NCBI GenBank assembly: GCA_000004695.1
Contig: CM000154.2
Span: 3,616,001 to 3,680,000, forward strand
Source of the DNA: Dictyostelium discoideum
Lineage: Eukaryota
DNA length: 64,000 bases
Direction: 5' to 3'
The translations under genes were made by a program, and so were the position numbers. The number at the start of each line of letters is the position of its first letter. The stretch's first letter is position 1. Under the pieces are notes generated by a model that was not told the origin of the DNA, did no database searches, and saw only the letters and a list, made by a program, of their open reading frames with translations. Below are positions 25,372-61,951 of this stretch, piece after piece.

Positions 25372-26811
25372 TAACAAACATATGTCATTCTTTAAAAGTT
25401 TTTAAATAAAATTAAAAAAAAACCGTCATTAAATTATTCATTTAGAAAATTTCTGCAACTGTCCCAACAGAACCAGTCCTTGTTTTATTAAACTATTACC
25501 ATATATCTAATTCAATTATACATAGATTTTATTATCAAAAAAAAAAAAAAAAAAAAATCTTTTTTTATTTTTTTCACCCATTTACTTAAGTTGTAGTCAT
25601 ATTTTTTATTTATTTAATTTTAGTTTTATTATTTTTTCTAATAATTTTGAAGATTTTCCTCTTTTTATTTTTATTATTTATTTTCATCATTTAATAATAC
25701 TTGGTAAATATCAATATTATAGATTATTTCATTTGAAGCAACCATTTTCCAAACTCTAAAACCAAATTTTTTATTAAGGTAAATATTGAGCAGAAGCATT
25801 ATTGCACTGGAAAAAAAAATTCAAAACATAATATTATTTTGTAAATACTAATGATTTAATAATCATTTAATAATCATTTATTTATAATTTTAATATTAAA
25901 AAAATAATCCTGATAATAAAATTTTAATAAAAAAGAATTAATTAATATTTATTAGAAATTAATATTTATTAAAAATTAGTAAATAATTTTAATATATTAA
26001 AAAAAATAATTTTTTATTAATTTTTAATTGATTTTTTATATTCATAAAAGAGTTTAATAAATGAAAATTCGCAATAGATGAAGCCACATTGGAATTAATT
26101 GGTCTTTTACGAATATTTTTATTTAGTTGTCCTATGATATCATACCTTTACATAATGGCAATATTAATCTGTCAGGATTTTTACTAACTAAATTTGTGTT
26201 CATTGTTGTGCTAAAAAAGCCATATTATTTTTTCACCTAAATTTTTTTTTTTTTTTTTTTTTTTTATTTTCCTATATAAATTAAAGTTAACATATAATAA
26301 AAAAAGAGAATATCGAGTAGAAAAAAAAAAGAAAAAAAAAAAAGTTATAAATAAAAGAGAAATTAAGTGTAATAATTTATTAATTTAAGATAAAAGATTT
26401 TTCGATTATATTATATAAATATTATAATATTTATAAAGATTTTTCAATTATATAAAATAATAATTATATAATTTTATAACAAAAAAAAAATAAAAAAAAT
26501 CTTTTTTTTTTTTTTTTGTTTAACGAATTTTATTTGGTAGTTAATAATTAGTTTATAATCAAATAATTAAAATTTACTTACTTGGCGAAAAAAAATGGTG
26601 GGAAGATGGAATTACAAATCAGCATTAAAATCTCAAATTTACACTGAGTGATGGCGGCTGTATAAAATTAAAATAGTCATTTACTACCTCTAATATCAAT
26701 ATTAGAACAAAAAAAAAAAAAAAAAAATAAAATAAAATATTATAAAATAGAATAAAATAATTATGGAGGTGTTAAAATTTAGTCAAAAATGTCATCACAA
26801 GGATTTTTATT

Positions 26812-28272
26812 TTATATGTTTACTATTTTGACATTTACAGGGACGAAAGAATAAATTAATTTTTTACAACTTTTATAAATATAGACATTATTTAATGTAT
26901 TAGGAATTGAATCAATAATTAATTCTTGTTTTATATCACCTATATGTAACTCTTTAACCCATTCTGGTATTATACCTTTGGTTAATTTTTGATTGAATCC
27001 ATCTAATAACCTAACAGTTGTTACAGTATTAGGAATTGAATCGATTATTAGTTCTTGTTTTATATCATCTATATACAACTCTTTAACACTTTCTGGTATT
27101 ATACCTTTGGTTAATTTTTGATTGAATCCATCTAATAACCTAACAGTTGTTACAGTATTAGGAATTGAATCGATTATTAATTCTTGTTTTATATCACCTA
27201 AACATAACCCTTTAACCCATTCTGGTATTATACCTTTGGTTAATTTTTGATTGAATCCATCACATAAAATAACAGTTGTTACAGTATTAGGAATTGAATC
27301 AATTATTAATTCTTGTTTTATATCTCTTATATACAACTCTTTAACACCTTCTGGTATTATACCTTTGGTTAATTTTTGATTGAATCCATCACATAACCTA
27401 ACAGTTGTTACAGTATTAGGAATTGAATCAATAATTAATTCTTGTTTTAAATTACCTATATACAACTCTTTAACACCTTCTGGTATTATACCTTTGGTTA
27501 ATTTTTGATTGAATCCATCACATAAAGTAATAGTTGTTACAGTATTAGGAATTGAATCAATAATTAGTTCTTGTTTTATATTACCTATATGTAACTCTTT
27601 AACACTTTCTGGTATAATACCTTTGGTTAATTTTTGATTGAATCCATCTAATAACCTAACACGTGTTACAGTATTAGGAATTGAATCAATTATTAATTCT
27701 TGTTTTATATCACCTATATACAACACTTTAACACCTTCTGGTATTATACCTTTGGTTAATTTTTGATTGAATCCATCACATAAAATAACAGTTGTTAGAG
27801 TACTAGGAATTGAATCAATTATTAATTCTTGTTTTATATCACCTAAACGTAACTCTTTAACACCTTCTGGTATTATACCTTTGGTTAATTTTTGATTGAA
27901 TCCATACCATAAACCAACGGTTGTTACAGTATTAGGAATTGAATCAATTATTAATTCTTGTTTTATATCACCTATATACAACACTTTAACACCTTCTGGT
28001 ATTATACCTTTGGTTAATTTTTGATTGAATCCACTTAGAAGCAAAACGTTGTTTGGTAATTTCTTTAGTTTTGATAAAATGTTACAATTGTCTTTGAATG
28101 CTAAACTTTCAAAATCATCAGTCAAAAAGGATGATTCATCACTCTCTGAATATATATAAAAATTGTGATTCAATACTAAAAACAAAGAATTAGTATTTTT
28201 TGTTTTATTAGACTTATTAATTTGAGTCTAACTTACTTTTAATGAATTCATTTTTATTATTTGAGTTATTTA

Positions 28273-28329
<57 letters not shown>

Positions 28330-29107
28330 TATAATCAATAGCATCATTAGGAATATCACCAAAAGAGTATATCGATTTAAAACTATTTTTAATATTATTA
28401 ATTGTTTGATTATCGAATTTTAAGATTTGATTATTATATTCTTTTAGTTTTGTTAAATTATTGATATTATTGCTATTTTTTAATATTAATAATGAGTTTT
28501 GATATTGTTTAATTAATTCAATAGTATCTGTATCAATTTGATAGCAATCATCATTGTCGTCATTATCTTGTTGATTATTAATTTGTGTAAAATAATTTAA
28601 TTTATCAATAATTGAATTATTATTATTATTTAAAATTGTTGAAATGATTTTATTATCATTGTTGATTGAAGAAGTTATAATTGTATTTATCAATATATTT
28701 TGATCTAAGTTTGTTGATAGTTGTTTTTCGATATCCAATTCAACAAATGAAAGTATATTGTGAATTTGTTTAAATTCATTTTTTAATAAATTATTATTAT
28801 CATCATTTTGTGATTGAATTTCTTTGAAAGTTTCATTTGATTCTTTTAATAATATTTGATCATTTTCTTTTCTTTCAATTAATTTTGGATAGATATTATC
28901 TTTAAAATCATTAATTAATGAATGAATATTTGATGCTGATGATTCTAATGAATCAGTTTTATGACCATGATGTTCACCTTTACGAGACGTACAAAGACTG
29001 CAACATGGCATAAATTTACAATCCAAACATAAAAATTCTAAATTTTTATTTGGATGAAGTGTACACCTATTTTGATTATTTATAATTATATCTTCACTTT
29101 CTTTCAT
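26812..29107 (-). CDS. B-box zinc-finger / coiled-coil / FNIP-repeat protein (paralog A, intact); 2 exons
   Basis: complement(join(26812..28175, 28237..29107)). Exon 1: [51 protein letters not shown] (B-box-like C-x2-H...C-x2-C...H-x2-H), then helical and Asn-rich regions, ending at donor AAAA|GTAAGT. Acceptor ttttag|TATTGAAT (phase 1) leads into about eleven 39-aa FNIP repeats ([39 protein letters not shown]). The FYIY block after the splice is conserved among paralogs. Confidence 0.8.
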
Positions 29108-29344
29108 TTTGTGTGCTATTTTGTTTTGAGTTTAAAAAAAAAAAAAAAAAATTTGATAATTTAATTTTAAAAAAAAAAAAAATAAAAAAAAATAAAAATA
29201 AAAATAGGTGCCAAAAAAAAGTTTGTGTTATTTTGATAACTTAAAATTTTAAAAAAAAAAAATAAAAATAAAAATAAAAAAAATTCTTTTTTGTAATATC
29301 ACCACTTCATATCCTTAAAATTCTTATGTGGCATTAATTATTTA

Positions 29345-30754
<1,410 letters not shown>

Positions 30755-37029: not shown

Positions 37030-37910
37030 TGTTATATTTACGAGATGAAATGGTCACACTAAAAAAAAAAAAAAATAAAAAAAAATAAAAAAAATTTTTG
37101 GCAATCGAAAAAAAAAAAAAAAAATAAAAAGTGAAAAATAAAAATAAAAATCCTTTAAAATTTACTTTATCTGATCAATTGATGTGCATTTTTTTTTTTT
37201 TTTTTTCTTTCTTTCTTTACAAAGTTTTAATGTTTCTATTACTCTTATTTCTAAATATAGAAAATATTGTAAAAATGAAGTGGAATTAACAAAATATTAA
37301 TAAACGTTTTTCTCGGGAAAATTATAGAAAATAATTGGTTTTATAATCTTTTAATATATAATCTTAATTTAATCTTAAAATGGTGGTGACTTGTAAAATT
37401 ACGTTTTTTTAAACACGAATAAATTTAATAAAACAAAATAAATAAAAACAAATAAAAAAAATAAGAAAACAAAAAGATGTATTTATTTTTTATTTTTTAT
37501 TTTTTATTTTTTTACTTTTTTAAAATTATTATTATTATTATTTTATTTAAATGATATTATGTATAAATACCCCCAAATTTTAATTTTTAATTTTTATTTT
37601 TTTATTTTTATTTTTTTTTGATTTAATAATAACCTAATCTCTATTTGAATATCTTGGAAGTTTGGCTCTTTTTTCCTCCTAATTATTTATAATAAAAATA
37701 AAAATAAAAAAGAAGTTAATAAGTTTAGTAGTTTTTTTTATTTCCCAAATAAAATGGAAAAAAATAAAAAAATATAAAAAAAAAAAAAAGAAAAGAAAAA
37801 ATTGGTAATCAAACCTATTAGTATTTTCCTTTTTCATTCATTCACTTTTTTTTCTATTTTTATTTGTTTCTTATTTTTTTGTTTTGATTTATCCTTTTTC
37901 TTTTTTTTTT

Positions 37911-39670
37911 TTATAAAATAGTTTTTATACGTATCAAATTTATTAAAATAGTTGTACTTACCATTGAGACAAAATCGTCATTATATATTAAGTGTGGTTC
38001 TTTCTGTGATTGCGAAATTTGTGGATTTACAACAACAGCAGGAGCAGATTTTAATACTGATGTTTGTTTTTTCTGTTGTGATTGTTGATATTGTTCAAAT
38101 GATTGTAAATTTGTGTCATTATTGGTATTATCATTATTATTTTCATTATTATTTTCATCATTATTAGTATTATTGTTGTTATTATTAATATTATTATTTG
38201 TATTATTATTGTTATTATTAATATTATTTGTATTGTTATTATTATTATTTTCCAAGTTATTACTATTGTTTGGTTCTTGTGGTTTTAATGGGGCTTGTTG
38301 ATTTGTTACATTATTTAATTTATCGGAAGGTGATGTTATTGAGCTAGGTGTTTGTGGTGATGTATTAGATGGTGGCGGAGGTGAATTATCAGTATTAATA
38401 TTATTTATATTGTTACTATTTATATTATTGTTGATATTATTATTATTACTATTGATATTGTTATTATTATTATTGTTATTATTATTATTATTTGGTGATG
38501 GTATATTTGAAAAAGGTGGTTTTGGATACATTGATGGTGGTAATCTTGGTGGTTGTGGTGATTGCATTGCAAATGAAATTGCCCCTTTTGGTTGTGGGGA
38601 ATTTTGATGATACGGTGGAATACCACCATTATTATTATTTAAATGTGGTGGTGGATATTATTTTTACCATCTTTTTTTTAATTTTAAAAATTGAAATTTT
38701 AATATGTTAATTGGATAATAAAAAAAAAAAAAAAAAAAAAATTTAAAAAAAAGACTTACAAATTGGTTTAGCGCCTGCTTTTTTTGAAACAGGTTTTGGG
38801 TCATTCATTAATGACATTTTTTTTTTTTTTTTATATATACAATTACTATTTATTTATAAATATAAAATAATTTATAAAAAAAAATGTTGAAAATAANNNN
38901 NNNNNNNNNNNNNNNNNNNNNNNNNNNNNNNNNNNNNNNNNNNNNNNNNNNNNNNNNNNNNNNNNNNNNNNNNNNNNNNNNNNNNNNNNNNNNNNNTTCA
39001 CCACCACCACCATTAAAATGATTTGGTGGCCAACCATTGTTGGTATTTGGTGGCCAACCACCACTATTTGGAGGCATTTTATGATACATTTGTGATGGTG
39101 GGCCATGATATGGTGGTTGATGATGTGGTTGGTGGTGTGGTTGGTGATGTGGTTGAAAATGTTGTGGTGGCATACATAGTAGAGGTGGTTGATTATTAAA
39201 CCACCACCACCTCCTCCCCCATATCCACTATTATATCCATTATATCCACTATTCTGATTCATATGACCACCATATTGCTGTTGTTGTTGTTGATATTGTT
39301 GATTATTCATATTATTCATATTATTCATATTGTTATTATTATTATCAAATCTAGCTTTTTTATTGTTATTATTGTTATTGTTATTATTATTATCATCTTC
39401 TTCTTCATCAGGTATACCTTCCATACCATAAATTTCATATTCTGGTGAATCTCTACCAGGTTTTGCATTTGGTACTTTAGTTAAAATTTCTTTATGTACA
39501 GTTTGAACATGAACTACCATACCACTTGCACTTGCTAATTTTCTATTACAATGATTACATTTAAAATGTTTTGCTTTTTGATGTTGAATTAAAATCTTTT
39601 CATCTTCAAATACTCTCTCACAATACCAACAATAGGGTTTTTCTTGTGTTGATCTTTTCTTTTTACCCAT
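37911..39670 (-). CDS. ZNF207/BuGZ-like C2H2 zinc-finger protein; gene model broken in this assembly (frameshift, 100-N gap, foreign inverted fragment)
   Basis: N-terminus (M at 39670) [93 protein letters not shown] matches ZNF207 ([39 protein letters not shown]....G...H...VHKE....VPNA.PGR...[10 protein letters not shown]) almost residue for residue. Downstream Pro/Gly/His-rich low-complexity tail lies in two frames (ORFs 38846..39670 and 38850..39173) then hits the N run. Beyond the gap the Pro-rich frame resumes (...[49 protein letters not shown]..., ORF 37911..38567). A GTAAGT donor sits right after ...FVSM at 37962, so a further 3' exon may exist (candidate ...ag|GAGGAAAAAAGAGCCAAACTTCCAAGATATTCAAATAGAGATTAG near 37690-37640, low confidence). 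Confidence 0.65.
38640..38895 (-). repeat. Inverted duplicate of the elp3 5' region (promoter, exon 1, intron 1, first 12 nt of exon 2) abutting the assembly gap
   Basis: rc(38757-38818) = ATGTCATTAATGAATGACCCAAAACCTGTTTCAAAAAAAGCAGGCGCTAAACCAATTTGTAAGTC vs elp3 40306-40372 ATGTCATTAATGAATGACCCAAGACCTGTTTCAAAAAAAGCAGGCGCTAAACCAGTTTGTAAGTC (2 mismatches). Flanking matches extend from rc(38640) ~ 40470 to rc(38895) ~ 40240. Confidence 0.75.
38896..38996. other. Assembly gap (run of ~100 N)
   Basis: Literal n characters in lines 38881-38996. Interrupts the ZNF207-like coding region. Confidence 0.99.
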
Positions 39671-40305
39671 TCTAAATTAATTTTTAAATAAAAAAAAAAA
39701 ATATATATATATAAATTGTTTAAAGATGAAAACACAAAAATGATAAAATAAAAATTTTCAAAAAAAAAAAAATAAAAAAAAAAAAAGAAATTTTCAAAAT
39801 AAAAAAAAAATAAAAAAAATAAAAAAAAAATAAAAAATAAAAAAAAAAAAGTATCTAATTTATTAAAAAAATAATAATATTATTATTTATATTATTATTT
39901 ATATTTTTTTTCAATAATAATAAATTAGTACTTTAAAAGATAATCAAAATAGAAAAAAAAAAAAAAAAAAAAAAAAATTGAAAAAAAAAAAAAATTAAAA
40001 AAATTAAAAATAAAAATAAGGATATTTATTAAAAAAAGGTTTATAAAAAAAAAAAAAAGGAAATTAATTGGTCAAAATAAGGGCAGGGTTTTATTCTTAA
40101 ATTTTTACTAAAAAAAACCCAAAAATAAAAATTTTTTTTTTTTTAATTAAAATTTAAATTAAAAAAAGGAAAAAAAAAAAAAAAAAATCGAAAAATTCAA
40201 AATTTTTTTTTTTTTTTTTTTTTTTTTTATTTTCAACTTTTTTTTTTATAAATAATATTATATTTATAAATAAATAGTAATTGTATATATAAAAAAAAAA
40301 AAAAA

Positions 40306-42157
40306 ATGTCATTAATGAATGACCCAAGACCTGTTTCAAAAAAAGCAGGCGCTAAACCAGTTTGTAAGTCTTTTTTTTAAATTTTTTTTTTTTTTTTTTT
40401 TTTATTATCCAATTAACATATTAAAATTTCAATTTTTAAAATTAAAAAAAAGATGGTAAAAATACACCACAATTTACAAAAACTGTTGGTGAAATTGTAA
40501 ATGCATTAATTAATGCTTATAAAGAAGGTAAAAAAGTGAATTTATTAAAGATTAAAACAGAATTAGCAGCAAAGAATTCATTATCAGATCAACCAAAATC
40601 TGTTGATATTATATCAGCAATTCCAGAATCATATAAAAATACATTATTACCATTATTAAAAGCAAAACCAGTTAGAACAGCATCAGGTATTGCAGTTGTT
40701 GCAGTTATGTGTAAACCACATCGTTGCCCACATTTAGCAATGACTGGTAATATTTGTGTATATTGTCCAGGTAAGTTTTTTAATAATAATAAAAAAAAAA
40801 AAAAAAAAAGAAAAAAGAAACTAATAATAAATAAAAATAATAAAAATAAATAGGTGGACCAGATTCAGATTTTGAATATTCAACACAATCATATACAGGT
40901 TATGAACCAACATCAATGAGAGCAATTAGAGCACGTTATAATCCATTTTTACAAACACGTCATCGTATTGATCAATTAAAACGTTTAGGACATAATGTTG
41001 AAAAGGTAGAATTCATTATTATGGGTGGCACATTTATGTCATTACCATCAGATTATAGGGATTATTTCATTCGTAATTTACATGATGCCTTATCGGGTCA
41101 TACATCAAATAATGTTGCAGAAGCAGTTAAATATTCAGAGCAAAGTAATGTTAAATGTGTTGGTATTACAATTGAAACACGTCCAGATCATTGTTTAAAA
41201 CTTCATCTTAGTAATATGTTAACCTATGGTTGTACACGTTTGGAGATTGGTGTACAAAGTGTTTTCGAAGATATTGCACGTGATACAAATCGTGGTCATA
41301 CAGTGCGTGCCGTATTGGAGTCATTTCAATTGGCAAAGGATAGTGGTTTCAAAGTGGTTGCACATATGATGCCAGATTTACCAAATATGGGTATGGAGAG
41401 AGATATCTATGGTTTTATGGAGTTTTTTGAGAATCCAGCATTTAGAGCTGACGGTTTGAAAATCTATCCAACTTTGGTAATTCGTGGTACAGGTCTTTAT
41501 GAACTTTGGAAAACTGGAACCTATAAAAATTATTCACCCGATTCTTTGGTGGATTTAATCGCAAAGGTATTGGCTTTGGTACCACCTTGGACTCGTATCT
41601 ATCGTATTCAAAGAGATATTCCAATGCCATTGGTTACAAGTGGTGTCGAGTATGGTAATTTACGTGAACTTTGTCTTGCTCGTATGAAAGATTTTGGTAC
41701 AAAATGTAGAGATGTTCGTACTCGTGAAGTTGGTATTCAAGAGGTACATCATAAAATTAAACCAGATCAAGTCGAATTAATTCGTCGTGATTACGTTGCC
41801 AATGGTGGTTGGGAAACATTTTTAAGTTTTGAAGATCCAAAACAAGATATTCTCATTGGTTTACTTCGTCTTAGAAAATGTTCAGAAACTTCTTTTAGAC
41901 CAGAGTTAAAGGAAAATTGTTCAATCGTTAGAGAATTACACGTTTATGGTAGTGTAGTTGGTATTCATAATCGTGATCCAACTAAATTTCAACATCAAGG
42001 TTATGGTACTTTATTAATGGAAGAAGCTGAAAGAATTGCAAGAGAAGAACATGGTTCAATTAAATTGGCAGTTATCGCTGGTGTTGGTACTCGTCATTAT
42101 TATAGAAAATTAGGTTATGAATTAGATGGTGTTTACGTTTCAAAATATCTTGGTTAA
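40306..42157 (+). CDS. elp3: Elongator complex protein 3 (radical-SAM + GNAT acetyltransferase); 3 exons, 559 aa
   Basis: join(40306..40363, 40453..40770, 40854..42157). Donors T|GTAAGTC (40364) and G|GTAAGTT (40771), acceptors aaaaaag|ATGGTAAAAAT (40452) and aataaatag|GTGGACCAG (40853). 58+318+1304 = 1680 nt = 560 codons. Translation is near-identical to ELP3 orthologs over the whole length: ...[88 protein letters not shown]...[29 protein letters not shown]...[17 protein letters not shown]...[43 protein letters not shown].... Confidence 0.92.
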
Positions 42158-51604: not shown

Positions 51605-51945
51605 ATGTCAAAATAGTAAACATTTAAAATAAAAATCCTTGTGGACATATTTTTGAGTAAATTTTAACATATAATATTTTATTTTATTTTATTTTGTTTT
51701 TTTTGTTCCAATATTGATACTAAAGGTAGTAAATAATTAATGCCACATAAGAATTTTAAGGATATGAAGTGGTGATATTACAAAAAAGAATTTTTTTTAT
51801 TTTTATTTTTATTTTTTTTAAAATTTTAAGTTATCAAAATAACACCTATTTTTATTTTTTTTTTTTTTTTTTTTATTTTTTTTTAAAATTAAATTATCAA
51901 ATTTTTTTTTTTTTTTTTTAAACTCAAAACAAAATAGCACACAAA

Positions 51946-52723
51946 ATGAAAGAAAGTGAAGATATAATTATAAATAATCAAAATAGGTGTACACTTCATC
52001 CAAATAAAAATTTAGAATTTTTATGTTTGAATTGTAAATTTATGCCATGTTGCAGTCTTTGTACGTCTCGTAAAGGTGAACATCATGGTCATAAAACTGA
52101 TTCATTTGAATCATCAGCATCAAATATTCATTTATTAATTAATGAATTTAAAGATAATATCTATCCAAAATTAATTGAAAGAAAAGAAAATGATCAAATA
52201 TTATTAAAAGAATCAAATGAAACTTTCAAAGAAATTCAATCACAAAATGATAATAATAATAATTTATTAAAAAATGAATTTAAACAAATTCACAATATAC
52301 TTTCATTTGTTGAATTCGATATCGAAAAACAACTATCAAAAAACTTAGATCAAAATATATTGATAAATACAATTATAACTTCTTCAATCGACAATGATAA
52401 TAAAATCATTTCAACAATTTTAAATAATAATAATAATTCAATTATTGATAAATTAAATTATTTTACACAAATTAATAATCAACAAGATAATGACGACAAT
52501 GATGATTACTATCAAATTGATACAGATACTATTGAATTAATTAAACAATATCAAAACTCATTATTAATATTAAAAAATAGCAATAATATCAATAATTTAA
52601 CAAAACTAAAAGAATATAATAATCAAATCTTAAAATTCGATAATCAAACAATTAATAATATTAAAAATAGTTTTAAATCGATATACTCTTTTGGTGATAT
52701 TCCTAATGATGCTATTGATTATA

Positions 52724-52780
<57 letters not shown>

Positions 52781-54241
52781 TAAATAACTCAAATAATAAA
52801 AATGAATTCATTAAAAGTAAGTTAGACTCAAATTAATAAGTCTAATAAAACAAAAAATACTAATTCTTTGTTTATAGTATTGAATCACAATTTTTATATA
52901 TATTCAGAGAGTGATGAATCATCCTTTTTGACTGATGATTTTGAAAGTTTAGCATTCAAAGACAATTGTAACATTTTATCAAAACTAAAGAAATTACCAA
53001 ACAACGTTTTGCTTCTAAGTGGATTCAATCAAAAATTAACCAAAGGTATAATACCAGAAGGTGTTAAAGAGTTGTATATAAGAGATATAAAACAAGATTT
53101 AATAATTGATTCAATTCCTAATACTGTAACAACTGTTATTTTATGTGATGGATTCAATCAAAAATTAACCAAAGGTATAATACCAGAAGGTGTTAAAGTG
53201 TTGTATATAGGTGATATAAAACAAGAATTAATAATTGATTCAATTCCTAATACTGTAACAACTGTTACTTTATGTAATGGATTCAATCAAAAATTAACCA
53301 AAGGTATAATACCAGAAGGTGTTAAAGAGTTGTATATAAGAGATATAAAACAAGATTTAATAATTGATTCAATTCCTAATACTGTAACATCTGTTAGTTT
53401 ATGTTATGGATTCAATCAAAAATTAACCAAAGGTATAATACCAGAAGGGGTTAAAGTGTTGCGTTTGGGTGATACAAAAAAAGAATTAATAATCGATTCA
53501 ATTCCTTATACTGTAAAAACTCTTACTTTGTGTGATGGATTCAATCAAAAATTAACCAAAGGTATAATACCAGAAGGTGTTAAAGAGTTGTATATAAGAG
53601 ATATAAAACAAGAATTATTAATTGATTCAATTCCTAATACTGTAACAACTGTTATTTTATGTGATGTATTCAATCAAAAATTAACCAAAGGTATAATACC
53701 AGAAGGTGTTAAAGAGTTGCGTTTGGGTAATACAAAACAAGAATCAATAATTGATTCAATTCCTAATACTGTAACAACTATTACTTTATGTGATGGATTC
53801 AATCAAAAATTAACCAAAGGTATAATACCAGAAGGTGTTAAAGAGTTACATATAGGTAATATAAAACAAGAACTAATAATTAATTCAATTCCTAATACTG
53901 TAACAACTGTTACTTTTTTTCAAGGATTCAATCAAAAATTAACCAAAGGTATAATACCAGAAGGGGTTAAAGTGTTGCGTTTGGGTAATACAAAACAAGA
54001 ATTAATAATCGATTCAATTCCTAATACTGTAACAACTGTTATTTTATGTGATGGATTCAATCAAAAATTAACCAAAGGTATAATACCAGAATGGGTTAAA
54101 GAGTTACATATATTTGATATAAAACAAGAATTAATTATTGATTCAATTCCTAATACATTAAATAATGTCTATATTTATAAAAGTTGTAAAAAATTAATTG
54201 ATTCTTTCGTCCCTGTAAATGTCAAAATAGTAAACATTTAA
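51946..54241 (+). CDS. B-box zinc-finger / coiled-coil / FNIP-repeat protein (paralog D, intact); 2 exons, 744 aa
   Basis: join(51946..52816, 52878..54241). Donor AAAA|GTAAGT at 52817, acceptor tttatag|TATTGAATCAC at 52877 (phase 1), a 61-bp intron. 871+1364 = 2235 nt = 745 codons. About 97% identical to paralog A. Eleven FNIP repeats. Confidence 0.85.
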
Positions 54242-54922
54242 AATAAAAATCCTTGTGATGACATTTTTGACTAAATTTTAACACCTCCATAATTATTTTA
54301 TTCTATTTTATAATATTTTATTTTATTTATTTTTTTTTTTTTTTCTTCTAATATTGATATTAGAGGTAGTAAATGACTATTTTAATTTTATACAGCCGCC
54401 ATCACTCAGTTTAAATTTGAGATTTTACTGCTGATTTGTAATTCCATCTTCCCACCATTTTTTTTTGCCAAGTAAGTAAATTTTCATTATTTGATTGTAA
54501 ACTAATTATTAACTACCAATTAAAATTCGTTAAACAAAAATAAAAGATTTTTTTTTTTATTTTTTTATTTTTTTTTTTTTCTAATTGATATTCTCTTTTT
54601 TTATTATATGTTAACTTTAATTTATATAAAAAAAAAAATATAAAAAAATTTAGGTGAAAAAATAATATGGCTTTTTTAGCACAACAATGAACATAAATTT
54701 AGTTAGTAAAAATCCTGACAGATTAATATTGCCATTATGTTAAGGTATGATATTATATGACAATTAAATAAAAATAGCTTTAATATTAATTAATTTCTTT
54801 TTTAAAAATTTAATAGACGTCAATTGATTTTCAAGACCAGAGAAATCCAATGTAAAAATTGTTAGCTCTTAAGATGATTCCAATCGAAAATAATTCCATA
54901 AAGCGTTAATCAAGTTAAATAA

Positions 54923-59018: not shown

Positions 59019-59027
59019 ATGATGGAA

Positions 59028-59075
<48 letters not shown>

Positions 59076-59795
59076 TGTTCACTTCATCCAAATAAAAAAT
59101 TAAAATATTTATGTTTGGGTTGTAAATTAATTCCATGTTGTATTATATGTACATCAAGTAAAGGTGAACATCATGGTCATAAAACTGAACCATTAGAATT
59201 TGTAACAACATCAAATATTATTTCATTAGTTAATGATTTTAAAGATAATATATATCAAAAAGTAATTGAAAGAATAGATAGCAATCAAACTATATTAAAT
59301 GAATCAACTGATAAATTCAATGAAATTCAATCACAATTTCATATTAATAATGATTCATTAAATAAAGAATTTAAAAAAATTCATGATATCATTTCAATCA
59401 TAGAATTAGATATTAAAAAACAATTAATTACAACCTATGAAAATAATACATTAATAAATACAGAATTAACTTCTTCAATAAATCATGATAATCAAATACT
59501 ATCAGAAATAATAAATAATAATGAAAATGATAATAATAACAATTATAGCACAACCATTGAAAAATTAAATCAAATTATTCAAAATAACAATCAACAACTT
59601 TATGATAATGATTTTAATAATGATGCAGATTTAATTAAAATAATTAAACAATATCAACAATCATTAATAATTTTAAATAATAATAATGATATCAATAATT
59701 CAAATAAATTAAAAGAATACAACAATCAATCAATTAATTATAATCAACGAATAATTGGAGAAATTAAAGATAAATCAAAATTAATTTACACATTA

Positions 59796-59865
<70 letters not shown>

Positions 59866-61951
59866 TTTTTATTAATAATAAAAGATATGAAATAAGAATG
59901 AATGAAAAAAATAATGAATTTTTTAAATGTAAGCTTTATTTATTAATTTATTGTTTTTGTAAATGATATTCACATTATTCTGACTGTGGGACCCAAATTT
60001 AGACGATGATTTTGGAAAGTTTTATATTTATACAGATAAGGAATCTTTTAAATTTAAAAATAAACTTGGTGTGGCATTTAAAGATGATTGTAATATTTTA
60101 TCAAAATTAGAACAAAACCAACTACCATCAAGTGTAATGTTATTAGATGGATTCAACCAGAAATTAATACAAAATATATTACCAGAAGGTATTTTATCCT
60201 TGTATTTAGGTGATATAAAACAAGAATTAATTATTGACTCAATTCCTAATACTGTAACAACTGTTGTTTTATGTAATGGTTTCAATCAAAAATTAACCAA
60301 AGGTATAATACCAGAAAGTGTTAAAGAGTTGTATATAGGTAATTTAAAACAAGAATTAATTATTGATTCAATTCCTAATACTGTAACAACTGTTGGTTTA
60401 TGTGATGGATTCAATCAAAAATTAACCAAAGGTATAATACCAGAAAGTGTTAAAGAGTTACGTTTAGCTGATATAAAACAAGAATTAATAATTAATTCAA
60501 TTCCTAATACTGTAACAACCGTTGGTTTATGTGATGGTTTCAATCAAAAATTAACCAAAGGTATAATACCAGAAGGTGTTAAAGTGTTACGTTTAGGTGA
60601 TATAAAACAAGAATTAATAATTGATTCAATTCCTAATACTGTAACAACTGTTGTTTTATGTAATGGATTCAATCAAAAATTAACCAAAGGTATAATACCA
60701 GAAGGTGTTAAAGAGTTGCATATATGTGATATAAAACAAGAATTAATTATTGATTCAATTCCTAATACTGTAACAACTGTTGTTTTATATGATGGATTCA
60801 ATCAAAAATTAACCAAAGGTATAATACCAGAAGGTGTTAAAGTGTTGCATATATGTGATATAAAACAAGAATTAATTATTGATTCAATTCCTAATACTGT
60901 AACAACTGTTATTTTATGTGATGGATTCAATCAAAAATTAACCAAAGGTATTATACCTGAAGGTGTTAAAGAGTTGTATATATGTGATATAAAACAAGAA
61001 TTAATAATTGATTCAATTCCTAATACTGTAACAACCGTTGGTTTAAGTGATGGATTCAATCAAAAATTAACCAAAGGTATAATACCAGAAGGTGTTAAAG
61101 AGTTACTTTTAAGTGATATAAAACAAGAATTAATTATTGATTCAATTCCTAATACTGTAACAACTGTTGGTTTATATGATGGATTCAATCAAAAATTAAC
61201 CAAAGGTATAATACCAGAAGGTGTTAAAGAGTTAGAGTTAGGTGATATAAAACAAGAATTAATTATTGATTCAATTCCTAATACTGTAACAACTGTTACT
61301 TTATGTAATGGATTCAATCAAAAATTAACCAAAGGTATTATACCTGAAGGTGTTAAAGAGTTGCATATATTTGATATAAAACAAGAATTAATTATTGATT
61401 CAATTCCTAATACTGTAACAACTGTTTTTTTATGTGATGGATTCAATCAAAAATTAACCAAAGGTATAATACCAGAAAGTGTTAAAGAGTTACGTTTAGG
61501 TGATATAAAACAAGAATTAATAATTGGTTCAATTCCTAATACTGTAACAGCTGTTGGTTTATATGATGGATTCAATCAAAAGTTAACCAAAGGTATAATA
61601 CCTGAAGGTGTTAAAGAGTTACGTTTAGGTAAAATAAAACAAGAATTAACAATTGATTCAATCCCTAATACTGTAACAACTGTTGGTTTATTAGATGGAT
61701 TCAATCAAAAATTAACCAAAAGCATAATACCAGAAGGTGTTAAAGAGTTGTATATAGGTGATATAAAACAAGAATTAATAATTGGTTCAATTCCTAATAC
61801 TGTAACAACTGTTGGTTTATATGATGGATTCAATCAAAAATTAACCAAAGGTATAATACCAGAAAGTGTTAAATTATTACGTTTAGGTGATATAAAACAA
61901 GAATTAATAATTGGTTCAATTCCTAATACTGTAACAACTGTTACTTTTTAA
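59019..61951 (+). CDS. B-box zinc-finger / coiled-coil / FNIP-repeat protein (paralog E, divergent, intact); 2 exons, 952 aa
   Basis: join(59019..59928, 60003..61951). Donor AAAT|GTAAGC at 59929, acceptor aaatttag|ACGATGATTTTGG at 60002 (phase 1). 910+1949 = 2859 nt = 953 codons. N-terminus MMENNNN...[44 protein letters not shown]. Post-splice ...YDDFGKFYIYTDKESFKFKNKLGVAFKDDCNILSKL conserves the FYIY block. About 16 FNIP repeats. Confidence 0.8.

What the first reader, a model, noticed from the sequence alone, without database searches (positions are those of the whole stretch)
38640..38996. Inverted copy of the elp3 promoter/exon 1/intron 1 fused to ZNF207-like coding sequence at the edge of a 100-N gap, a probable misjoin
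A 256-bp block is the reverse complement of elp3's 5' end 1.4 kb away, with 2 mismatches in 65 bp of exon 1. It even retains the ag|ATGGTAAAAATA exon-2 start. It then switches abruptly, at a TAA in frame, into the Pro-rich ZNF207 tail, and on its other side runs straight into the N gap. A real event would be an inverted tandem duplication inserted into a conserved essential gene. The placement next to a gap in low-complexity sequence makes an assembly chimera more likely. Either way the ZNF207 model here is unreliable.
Basis: seen in the sequence. Interest (0 to 1): 0.5.

Follow-up and report, generated by a model that had tools for sequence, protein, structure and literature searches.

The report
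Chimeric contig end beside a gap
A 238-base inverted copy of the start of the elp3 gene sits at the end of a contig, next to a sequence gap inside a conserved zinc-finger gene of the Dictyostelium discoideum AX4 reference genome. It is most likely the leftover tail of a chimeric sequencing read, not a real rearrangement.

Summary
Window 38659-38896 is the reverse complement of 40227-40464, which covers elp3's 79 nt upstream, exon 1, intron 1 and 12 nt of exon 2. It is 238 nt with 5 substitutions and no indels. It runs into the only N gap (38897-38996) and joins the Pro-rich half of a ZNF207/BuGZ-like gene at a sharp junction (38657/38659).

The window is D. discoideum AX4 chromosome 5. NCBI already labels the zinc-finger protein 'partial' (XP_635891.2).

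The evidence favours an artefact:
- All five mismatches lie downstream of an A22 run in the left-to-right reading direction and become denser towards the contig end.
- Four of the five equal the next true base, while the A22, T16, T8 and A8 run lengths are unchanged.
- The copy has stops in all frames of a conserved gene, yet both halves of that gene stay open. Joined directly, they align without a gap to the P. violaceum orthologue.
- The opposite contig end carries a frameshift.
- The two gap edges are mutually complementary ((GGT)4/(CCA)3), a plausible sequencing or cloning obstacle.
- An independent D. discoideum contig passes unbranched through the shared segment.

No AX4 reads could be examined, so this is not proven.

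Verdict: not a real feature (confidence about 0.75). Interest is low.

The parts
38659..38896 (-). Inverted copy of the elp3 5' end. On the minus strand it reads 79 nt upstream, exon 1, intron 1 and the first 12 nt of exon 2. It forms the last 238 nt of the contig left of the gap.
   Evidence: 238 nt, 5 substitutions (38763, 38795, 38866, 38869, 38885), no indels. Stop codons in all three frames of the ZNF207 sense strand.
40227..40464 (+). Source sequence: the elp3 upstream region (40227-40305), exon 1 (40306-40363), intron 1 (40364-40452, GTAAGT...AG) and the first 12 nt of exon 2 (40453-40464).
   Evidence: The downstream ORF 40916-42157 hits Radical_SAM, Radical_SAM_C and GNAT.
38897..38996 (.). 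100-N placeholder gap, the only N run in the window.
38655..38660 (-). Junction. TAA (38660-38658) is made of the last two elp3-like bases plus one more. It is followed by TAT (38657-38655), the first codon of the ZNF207-like tail. The breakpoint is sharp to within 1 nt.
38997..39670 (-). 5' half of the ZNF207/BuGZ-like gene (ATG 39670-39668), annotated as XP_635891.2 'partial'. It runs into the gap.
39197..39222 (-). Zone where the reading frame must shift by one base for the conserved Pro/His-rich frame ([15 protein letters not shown]...[13 protein letters not shown]) to follow GYGGGGGGG. This is probably a single-base error in the reference.
37962..38657 (-). 3' half of the same gene: 232 open codons from [12 protein letters not shown]... 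to ...[11 protein letters not shown].
   Evidence: It carries the conserved ISF...[11 protein letters not shown] and HLIYNDD.SM motifs shared with orthologues P0121-P0123.
37679..37961 (-). Intron (GTAAGT...AG) before the last exon of the ZNF207-like gene.
   Evidence: read directly. After splicing, the product continues EEKRAKLPRY as in the orthologues.
37634..37678 (-). Last exon of the ZNF207-like gene: EEKRAKLPRYSNRD*.
38641..38657 (.). Left gap-proximal ZNF207 edge (+ strand TAAATGTGGTGGTGGATAT). It is complementary to the right edge at 38997-39016.
38997..39016 (.). Right gap edge (+ strand TTCACCACCACCACCATTAA). If the two contigs abut, it forms a 10-bp G+C-rich stem plus an A/T extension with the left edge.
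   Evidence: -19.6 kcal/mol for the 84-nt joined sequence, z = -4.5, 0 of 200 shuffles as stable.

Best explanation
The 238 nt at 38659-38896 are not part of the AX4 chromosome at this position. They are the low-quality 3' tail of one, or very few, chimeric Sanger reads that started in the ZNF207-like tail and read rightwards. The template was a shotgun or finishing sub-clone in which the ZNF207 sequence had been joined, in inverted orientation, to the elp3 intron-1/exon-2 boundary about 1.8 kb away. That tail was never trimmed and became the end of the contig left of a sequence gap.

In the real genome the two halves of the ZNF207/BuGZ-like gene are continuous, with few or no codons missing. 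The gap probably exists because the true sequence at that point is a short G+C-rich inverted repeat, (GGT)4 followed by (CCA)3, in a region of GGT/CCA repeats that hampers Sanger reading or cloning.

Shown: the anatomy, the mismatch pattern, the colinearity with orthologues, and the unbranched independent contig. Inferred: the single-read origin, the rearranged clone, and the hairpin as the cause.
For: 1. Position. The copy is the terminal 238 nt of a contig that abuts the only gap in the window.
2. Error-like mismatch pattern. In the left-to-right direction there are 0 mismatches in the 61 nt before the A22 run (38720-38741), 2 in the 75 nt between A22 and T16, and 3 in the 64 nt after T16. 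Clustering towards the contig end has P = 0.027. Four of the five wrong bases equal the next true base, as expected from phase slippage after a homopolymer.
3. Homopolymers. There are 2.1% substitutions, yet the A22, T16, T8 and A8 run lengths are identical to the source. By contrast, independent D. discoideum contigs differ from the reference by only 2 substitutions in 1840 nt but already differ in an A-run and a T-run length. Real divergence would therefore change run lengths first.
4. Gene logic. The copy puts stops in all three frames of a conserved gene. Yet the downstream 232 codons, the intron and the last exon are intact. Concatenating the two halves directly aligns without any gap to the P. 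violaceum orthologue ([11 protein letters not shown]|YPPP against PPHFSQYQG-YPPP; invariant PPP right after the junction).
5. Poor sequence on the other side too. There is a frame error about 200 nt right of the gap.
6. The gap edges are mutually complementary.
7. Logan contig L001 (SRR28564542) runs from the T-run at 40382 through the 83-nt shared segment into elp3 exon 2 without a break. In a k=31 graph, a second well-covered exit into ATATCCACC would have ended the contig there.
8. ZNF207 and elp3 are head-to-head neighbours with an intact ZNF207 in P. violaceum and T. lacteum, and no inverted repeat was found in the P. violaceum locus.
9. NCBI already marks the protein as partial.
Against: No AX4 reads, traces or long-read assembly could be examined, so the junction was never tested directly.

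The Logan contigs carry variants relative to the reference. No contig with the reference's own intron-2 allele is on record. They therefore say nothing certain about AX4 itself.

A random co-ligation chimera would not be expected to pick a partner only 1.8 kb away in inverted orientation. The explanation needs an intramolecular rearrangement of a clone or a small-target finishing library, and that is inferred.

Exact homopolymer lengths are slightly surprising for a degraded read tail. Five mismatches are few for statistics.
Confidence: 0.75

Rival explanations
1. There is a real, recent inverted micro-duplication in the AX4/NC4 lineage. A copy of at least 238 bp of the elp3 promoter, exon 1 and intron 1 was inserted in inverted orientation into the coding exon of the ZNF207/BuGZ-like gene. 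The insertion site is the hairpin-prone (GGT)4/(CCA)3 sequence, and the insertion splits the gene. The assembler then broke the contigs at the repeat boundary.
For: The junction is sharp and both flanks are genuine genomic sequence. The partner lies only about 1.8 kb away in inverted orientation, as expected for template-switch or fold-back repair events. The right contig ends exactly where the insertion would begin. A frame error in the 5' half could mean the gene is decaying. Laboratory strains of D. discoideum are known to carry duplications, for example the chromosome 2 duplication of AX4 (PMC2665215, PMC12745789).
Against: 2.1% substitutions with unchanged A22/T16 runs do not look like evolutionary divergence. 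If the mismatches are instead read errors, the sequence is poorly supported anyway. An old event conflicts with the perfectly open 232-codon tail and intact last exon. The gene is conserved and intact in other dictyostelids. An independent D. discoideum contig shows no branch at the junction k-mer.
Confidence: 0.13
2. This is an assembler misjoin of correct reads. A read from the true elp3 5' region was wrongly overlapped onto the ZNF207 tail through a shared repeat.
For: The region is low-complexity. There is a fuzzy similarity just past the breakpoint: elp3 ...AAATA-CACCACAATTTA against ZNF207 ...ATATCCACCACCACATTTA.
Against: The similarity is only 7 exact bases displaced by an 8-nt gap, far too short for an overlap assembler. 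The copy differs from the source at 5 positions, so it is not simply the same consensus placed twice.
Confidence: 0.05
3. This is a real gene fission. The duplicated elp3 promoter now drives separate expression of the C-terminal part of ZNF207 (from Met at 38567), while the zinc-finger part is expressed from the native promoter.
For: The copy includes 79 nt upstream of the elp3 ATG, exon 1 and intron 1 in the same orientation as the ZNF207 tail. The tail ORF is intact.
Against: Splicing elp3 exon 1 to the retained acceptor gives ...[10 protein letters not shown] in the wrong frame (read directly). No protein matching the first 55 residues of the tail exists in a 1.84-billion-protein library. 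All the arguments against a real duplication apply.
Confidence: 0.03

Closest known systems
Chimeric-clone or chimeric-read tails left at contig ends in Sanger shotgun assemblies
   Same: The foreign sequence is confined to the last few hundred bases of a contig next to a gap. The breakpoint is sharp with no repeat. Mismatches rise towards the read end and after homopolymers. The affected gene model is truncated.
   Different: The partner is not a random locus but lies about 1.8 kb away in inverted orientation. This points to an intramolecular rearrangement of one clone, or to a small-target finishing library, rather than random co-ligation. The read layout was not available to confirm single-read support.
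Fold-back or template-switch inverted duplications seeded by short inverted repeats (real genomic events)
   Same: The copy has inverted orientation and a nearby source, and the breakpoint lies next to a short hairpin-forming inverted repeat.
   Different: The observed junction does not join a sequence to its own complement at the short repeat. It joins ZNF207 to the elp3 intron/exon boundary with no usable microhomology. The mismatch pattern looks like read error.
The inverted duplication of more than 700 kb on chromosome 2 of AX4 (PMC2665215, PMC12745789)
   Same: It is a strain-specific inverted duplication in the same reference genome, with gaps at its borders.
   Different: The size differs by more than three orders of magnitude. 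That duplication is supported by mapping and copy-number data, whereas here there is no independent support.

Membership tests
Assembly artefact: chimeric read tail at a contig end | The foreign segment lies at the very end of a contig, adjacent to a gap. | tested here: met
   38896 is followed directly by the N run 38897-38996.
Assembly artefact: chimeric read tail at a contig end | Differences from the true source look like base-calling errors: directional, rising with read length, and following homopolymers. | tested here: met
   Mismatch counts are 0/61, 2/75 and 3/64 across the A22 and T16 runs. Clustering P = 0.027. Four of five miscalls equal the next base. No run-length change. Only five events, so this is suggestive.
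Assembly artefact: chimeric read tail at a contig end | The junction is supported by one or very few reads and is absent from independent reads of the same strain. | not testable with these tools
   No AX4 read data or assembly layout is accessible. Look-ups for reference-allele contigs found nothing.
Assembly artefact: chimeric read tail at a contig end | The junction is absent from independent assemblies of the species. | tested here: inconclusive
   Logan contig L001 passes unbranched through the shared 83 nt. However, it comes from a sample that differs from the reference allele, and no contig covering the ZNF207 side was found.
Real segmental (inverted) duplication | Both junctions of the inserted copy are present in the sequence. 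| tested here: not met
   Only the left junction exists. The right contig starts with ZNF207 sequence and has no elp3-like bases.
Real segmental (inverted) duplication | Divergence between the copies is consistent with the mutation spectrum of the genome, in which homopolymer length changes precede substitutions. | tested here: not met
   Five substitutions and no run-length change in A22/T16. Between strains there are 2 substitutions per 1840 nt, but already run-length changes.
ZNF207 / BuGZ / SUF4 family (the interrupted gene) | N-terminal paired C2H2 zinc fingers with the conserved KPYCWYC...HQKAKHFKC...VHVQTVHKE pattern. | tested here: met
   Hits to ZNF207, BuGZ and SUPPRESSOR OF FRI 4 proteins at E down to 1e-35 or better. 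Pfam zf-C2H2 and zf-C2H2_jaz. Invariant columns in A2.
ZNF207 / BuGZ / SUF4 family (the interrupted gene) | A Pro-rich middle region and a conserved C-terminal motif (...LIY.D...SMEEKRA.LP.Y) in the same polypeptide. | tested here: met
   Both are present but on opposite sides of the gap plus copy. They are colinear with P0121 and P0122, and partly with P0123, whose model ends at ...SM.
Elp3 (source gene) | Radical SAM domain plus a C-terminal GNAT acetyltransferase domain. | tested here: met
   Radical_SAM, Radical_SAM_C and Acetyltransf_1 on ORF 40916-42157. ELP3_N on the upstream exon in L001.

The most novel reading that the evidence does not exclude
The copy is real in AX4. A hairpin-prone (GGT)4/(CCA)3 site inside the BuGZ/ZNF207 orthologue broke and was repaired by copying the neighbouring elp3 promoter, exon 1 and intron 1 in inverted orientation. 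This split a conserved spindle or splicing-related gene in a haploid laboratory strain. It possibly created a promoter for separate expression of the C-terminal half, that is, gene fission by promoter capture.
Probability: 0.08. Interest if true: 0.45.

Novelty: not a real feature. Interest (0 to 1): 0.1.

Why it matters
The importance is practical rather than biological.

- The AX4 reference is the coordinate system for nearly all Dictyostelium genetics. At this locus the BuGZ/ZNF207 orthologue is represented only by a truncated protein (XP_635891.2) whose last 67 residues are mis-framed.
- Its conserved C-terminal half (37634-38657) matched no protein in any library searched, so it is probably unannotated.
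- A spurious second copy of the elp3 start can draw multi-mapping reads, which would distort expression, variant or insertion-site calls for elp3 exon 1.
- Flagging the block for trimming and closing the gap, which is probably only a few codons, would repair one gene model.
- If the copy were instead real, it would be an unusual disruption of a conserved gene in a haploid model strain.

Tried and rejected
- Independent D. discoideum sequence across the gap. Three protein searches used the N-terminus, a reconstructed full-length protein and the central region. They returned only the AX4 partial protein and orthologues from other species.
- A full scan of 1.84 billion representatives with the 55 residues next to the junction found nothing.
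- Exact-product look-ups failed for P0001, the 218-aa tail ORF and the reference-allele elp3 exon-2 ORF.
- Exact DNA scans of JGI metagenomes and GTDB genomes with two 37-38-nt ZNF207 probes found nothing.
- Only the elp3 exon-3 ORF retrieved Logan contigs.
- The idea that the block is a dispersed repeat or mobile element was rejected. It has exactly one full-length partner in the window; all other hits are short homopolymer-rich matches.
- The idea that the block could be spliced out as an intron of ZNF207 was rejected. The retained acceptor leaves two in-frame stops (TGG TAA AAA TAA) before the first conserved codon, and there is no AG directly before 38657.
- Inversion mediated by short inverted repeats (TAAATGTGGTGG at 38641 against CACCACAATTTA at 40466) was considered. 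The match is displaced by 8 nt from the actual breakpoint, so it is probably chance.
- The 2005 genome paper could not be read. Literature searches found no description of this locus.

Full report
**Origin of the window.** The window has 22% G+C and a single run of 100 N at 38897-38996. The ORF that starts at 39670 on the minus strand is 100% identical to 'C2H2-type zinc finger-containing protein, partial [Dictyostelium discoideum AX4]'. That protein is 224 aa and lies on a 5,125,352-nt record; its accessions are XP_635891.2 / EAL62391.2. The window is therefore part of chromosome 5 of the AX4 reference. According to PMC2665215, that reference was assembled from Sanger reads of chromosome-enriched shotgun libraries, with gaps closed by primer walking on bridging clones.

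**The observation.**
- The repeat finder reports arms 38659-38896 and 40227-40464, 238 nt and 98% complementary.
- The ungapped comparison gives five substitutions and no indel.
- The block has exactly one full-length partner in the 64 kb. All other hits are short homopolymer-rich matches.
- The source covers 79 nt upstream of the elp3 ATG, exon 1 (40306-40363, 58 nt, two mismatches), intron 1 (40364-40452) and the first 12 nt of exon 2. The downstream exon carries Radical_SAM, Radical_SAM_C and GNAT domains.
- The copy ends directly at the gap on one side.
- On the other side identity stops at 38659. A TAA (38660-38658) is followed by TAT CCA CCA CCA ..., the open frame of the zinc-finger gene's tail.

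**The interrupted gene.**
- The minus strand encodes [17 protein letters not shown]..., which matches ZNF207/BuGZ/SUPPRESSOR OF FRI 4 proteins across eukaryotes.
- Left of the junction the same strand stays open for 232 codons: [29 protein letters not shown]...[11 protein letters not shown]...[11 protein letters not shown].
- A GTAAGT...AG intron follows (37961-37679), then a last exon EEKRAKLPRYSNRD*.
- Dictyostelid orthologues carry the same motifs in one polypeptide (P0121; P0122 from Polysphondylium violaceum; P0123 from Tieghemostelium lacteum).
- When the two D. discoideum halves are simply concatenated, they align to P. violaceum without a gap at the joint: [11 protein letters not shown]|YPPP against PPHFSQYQG-YPPP. 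The invariant PPP comes immediately after the junction. Few or no codons are therefore missing, and the elp3-like block sits inside a coding exon.
- The block has 9, 4 and 4 stop codons in the three frames of that strand. It cannot be removed as an intron without losing conserved codons.
- In P. violaceum and T. lacteum the ZNF207 orthologue and Elp3 are head-to-head neighbours, as here. ZNF207 is intact in both, and no inverted repeat was found in the P. violaceum locus.

**Evidence that the block is an artefact.**
1. Read in the + direction, from the ZNF207 tail towards the gap, there are no mismatches in the 61 nt before the A22 run (38720-38741). There are two in the 75 nt between A22 and the T16 run, and three in the 64 nt after T16. 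The shift towards the contig end has P = 0.027 in a permutation test. Four of the five wrong bases equal the next true base. This is what out-of-phase Sanger signal after a homopolymer produces (my own knowledge of the method).
2. The copy differs from its source by 2.1% in substitutions, yet it keeps A22, T16, T8 and A8 at exactly the source lengths. Independent D. discoideum contigs (L001-L005) differ from the reference by only two substitutions in up to 1840 nt but already differ in an A-run and a T-run length. Real divergence of 2% would be expected to alter the runs.
3. If the substitutions were real, the event would be old. That is hard to reconcile with an untouched 232-codon tail full of AAT repeats. 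If they are errors, the terminal sequence is weakly supported.
4. The contig on the other side of the gap also looks poor. Between 39197 and 39222 the frame must shift by one base to continue in the conserved Pro/His-rich frame. The annotated protein continues in the wrong frame, reading [15 protein letters not shown]....
5. The two gap edges are complementary to each other. On the sense strand, (GGT)4GAA is followed by TAT(CCA)3. If abutted, they fold into a 10-bp G+C-rich stem with an A/T extension (z = -4.5, 0 of 200 shuffles as stable). This is a plausible reason why reads from both sides stop there and why a clone might rearrange there. That causal step is inference.
6. Logan contig L001 (SRR28564542) starts in the T-run at 40382 and runs through the 83 nt that are identical in source and copy, straight into elp3 exon 2. 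In a k=31 de Bruijn assembly, a second well-covered continuation (…AAAAATA followed by ATATCC) would have ended the contig at that node. This reasoning rests on my own knowledge of how such contigs are built.

**Limits of the evidence.**
- The Logan samples carry variants relative to the reference, and no contig with the reference allele is on record. They exclude a species-wide duplication, not an AX4-specific one.
- No sequence from any D. discoideum source spanning the ZNF207 gap could be found in any accessible collection.
- A random co-ligation chimera would not be expected to pick a partner 1.8 kb away in inverted orientation. I therefore favour rearrangement of a single clone, or a chimera from a small-target finishing library. 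This cannot be checked here.
- The weak similarity just past the breakpoint (CACCACA, displaced by 8 nt) is too short to have misled an assembler and is probably chance.

**Verdict.** The block is most likely an untrimmed chimeric read tail at a contig end (about 0.75). A real AX4-specific inverted micro-duplication remains possible (about 0.13). Either way, the ZNF207-like gene model is unreliable: it is truncated and mis-framed, and its conserved C-terminal half matched no protein in any library searched.

The feature is not biologically novel. Its value lies in curating the reference.

Noticed in passing
window 39197-39222: There is an apparent single-base frame error in the ZNF207-like gene, about 200 nt right of the gap. 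The annotated protein XP_635891.2 continues as [15 protein letters not shown]...MVVVV. The adjacent frame gives [20 protein letters not shown]...[13 protein letters not shown], which aligns with the orthologues.
   Followed up: partly
window 37634-38657: This is the conserved C-terminal half of the ZNF207/BuGZ-like gene: a 232-codon exon, a 283-nt intron and the last exon EEKRAKLPRYSNRD*. It seems to have no annotated protein. Its first 55 residues match nothing among 1.84 billion representative proteins.
   Followed up: partly
window 38641-38657 and 38997-39016: The two ZNF207 edges of the gap are complementary to each other ((GGT)4 against (CCA)3) and would form a hairpin if the contigs abut. 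This may be why the gap was never closed.
   Followed up: partly
window 26481-29348, 51726-54570 and 59019-61951: There are three paralogous genes encoding a B-box zinc finger plus FNIP repeats. Two of them form a 2.87-kb inverted pair at 94.8% identity. Each contains tandem repeats of about 129 nt (43 aa, FNIP repeat) that are 90-92% alike.
   Followed up: partly
window 40382-40403, 40791-40806 and 41029; loci L001-L005: Five independent D. discoideum contigs from two SRA run series share the same differences from the reference in the stretches each one covers. The T-run is at least 24 in L001, the only contig that reaches it, against 22 in the reference. Intron 2 reads A13TAAAG instead of A20G, and there is a synonymous C-to-T change at 41029. 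These are either strain polymorphisms or reference errors.
   Followed up: no
L006 3589-7367 and L007 4062-7155: The head-to-head arrangement of Elp3 and the ZNF207 orthologue is conserved in Polysphondylium violaceum (542-bp spacer) and Tieghemostelium lacteum (153-bp spacer). This suggests an old shared bidirectional promoter region.
   Followed up: no
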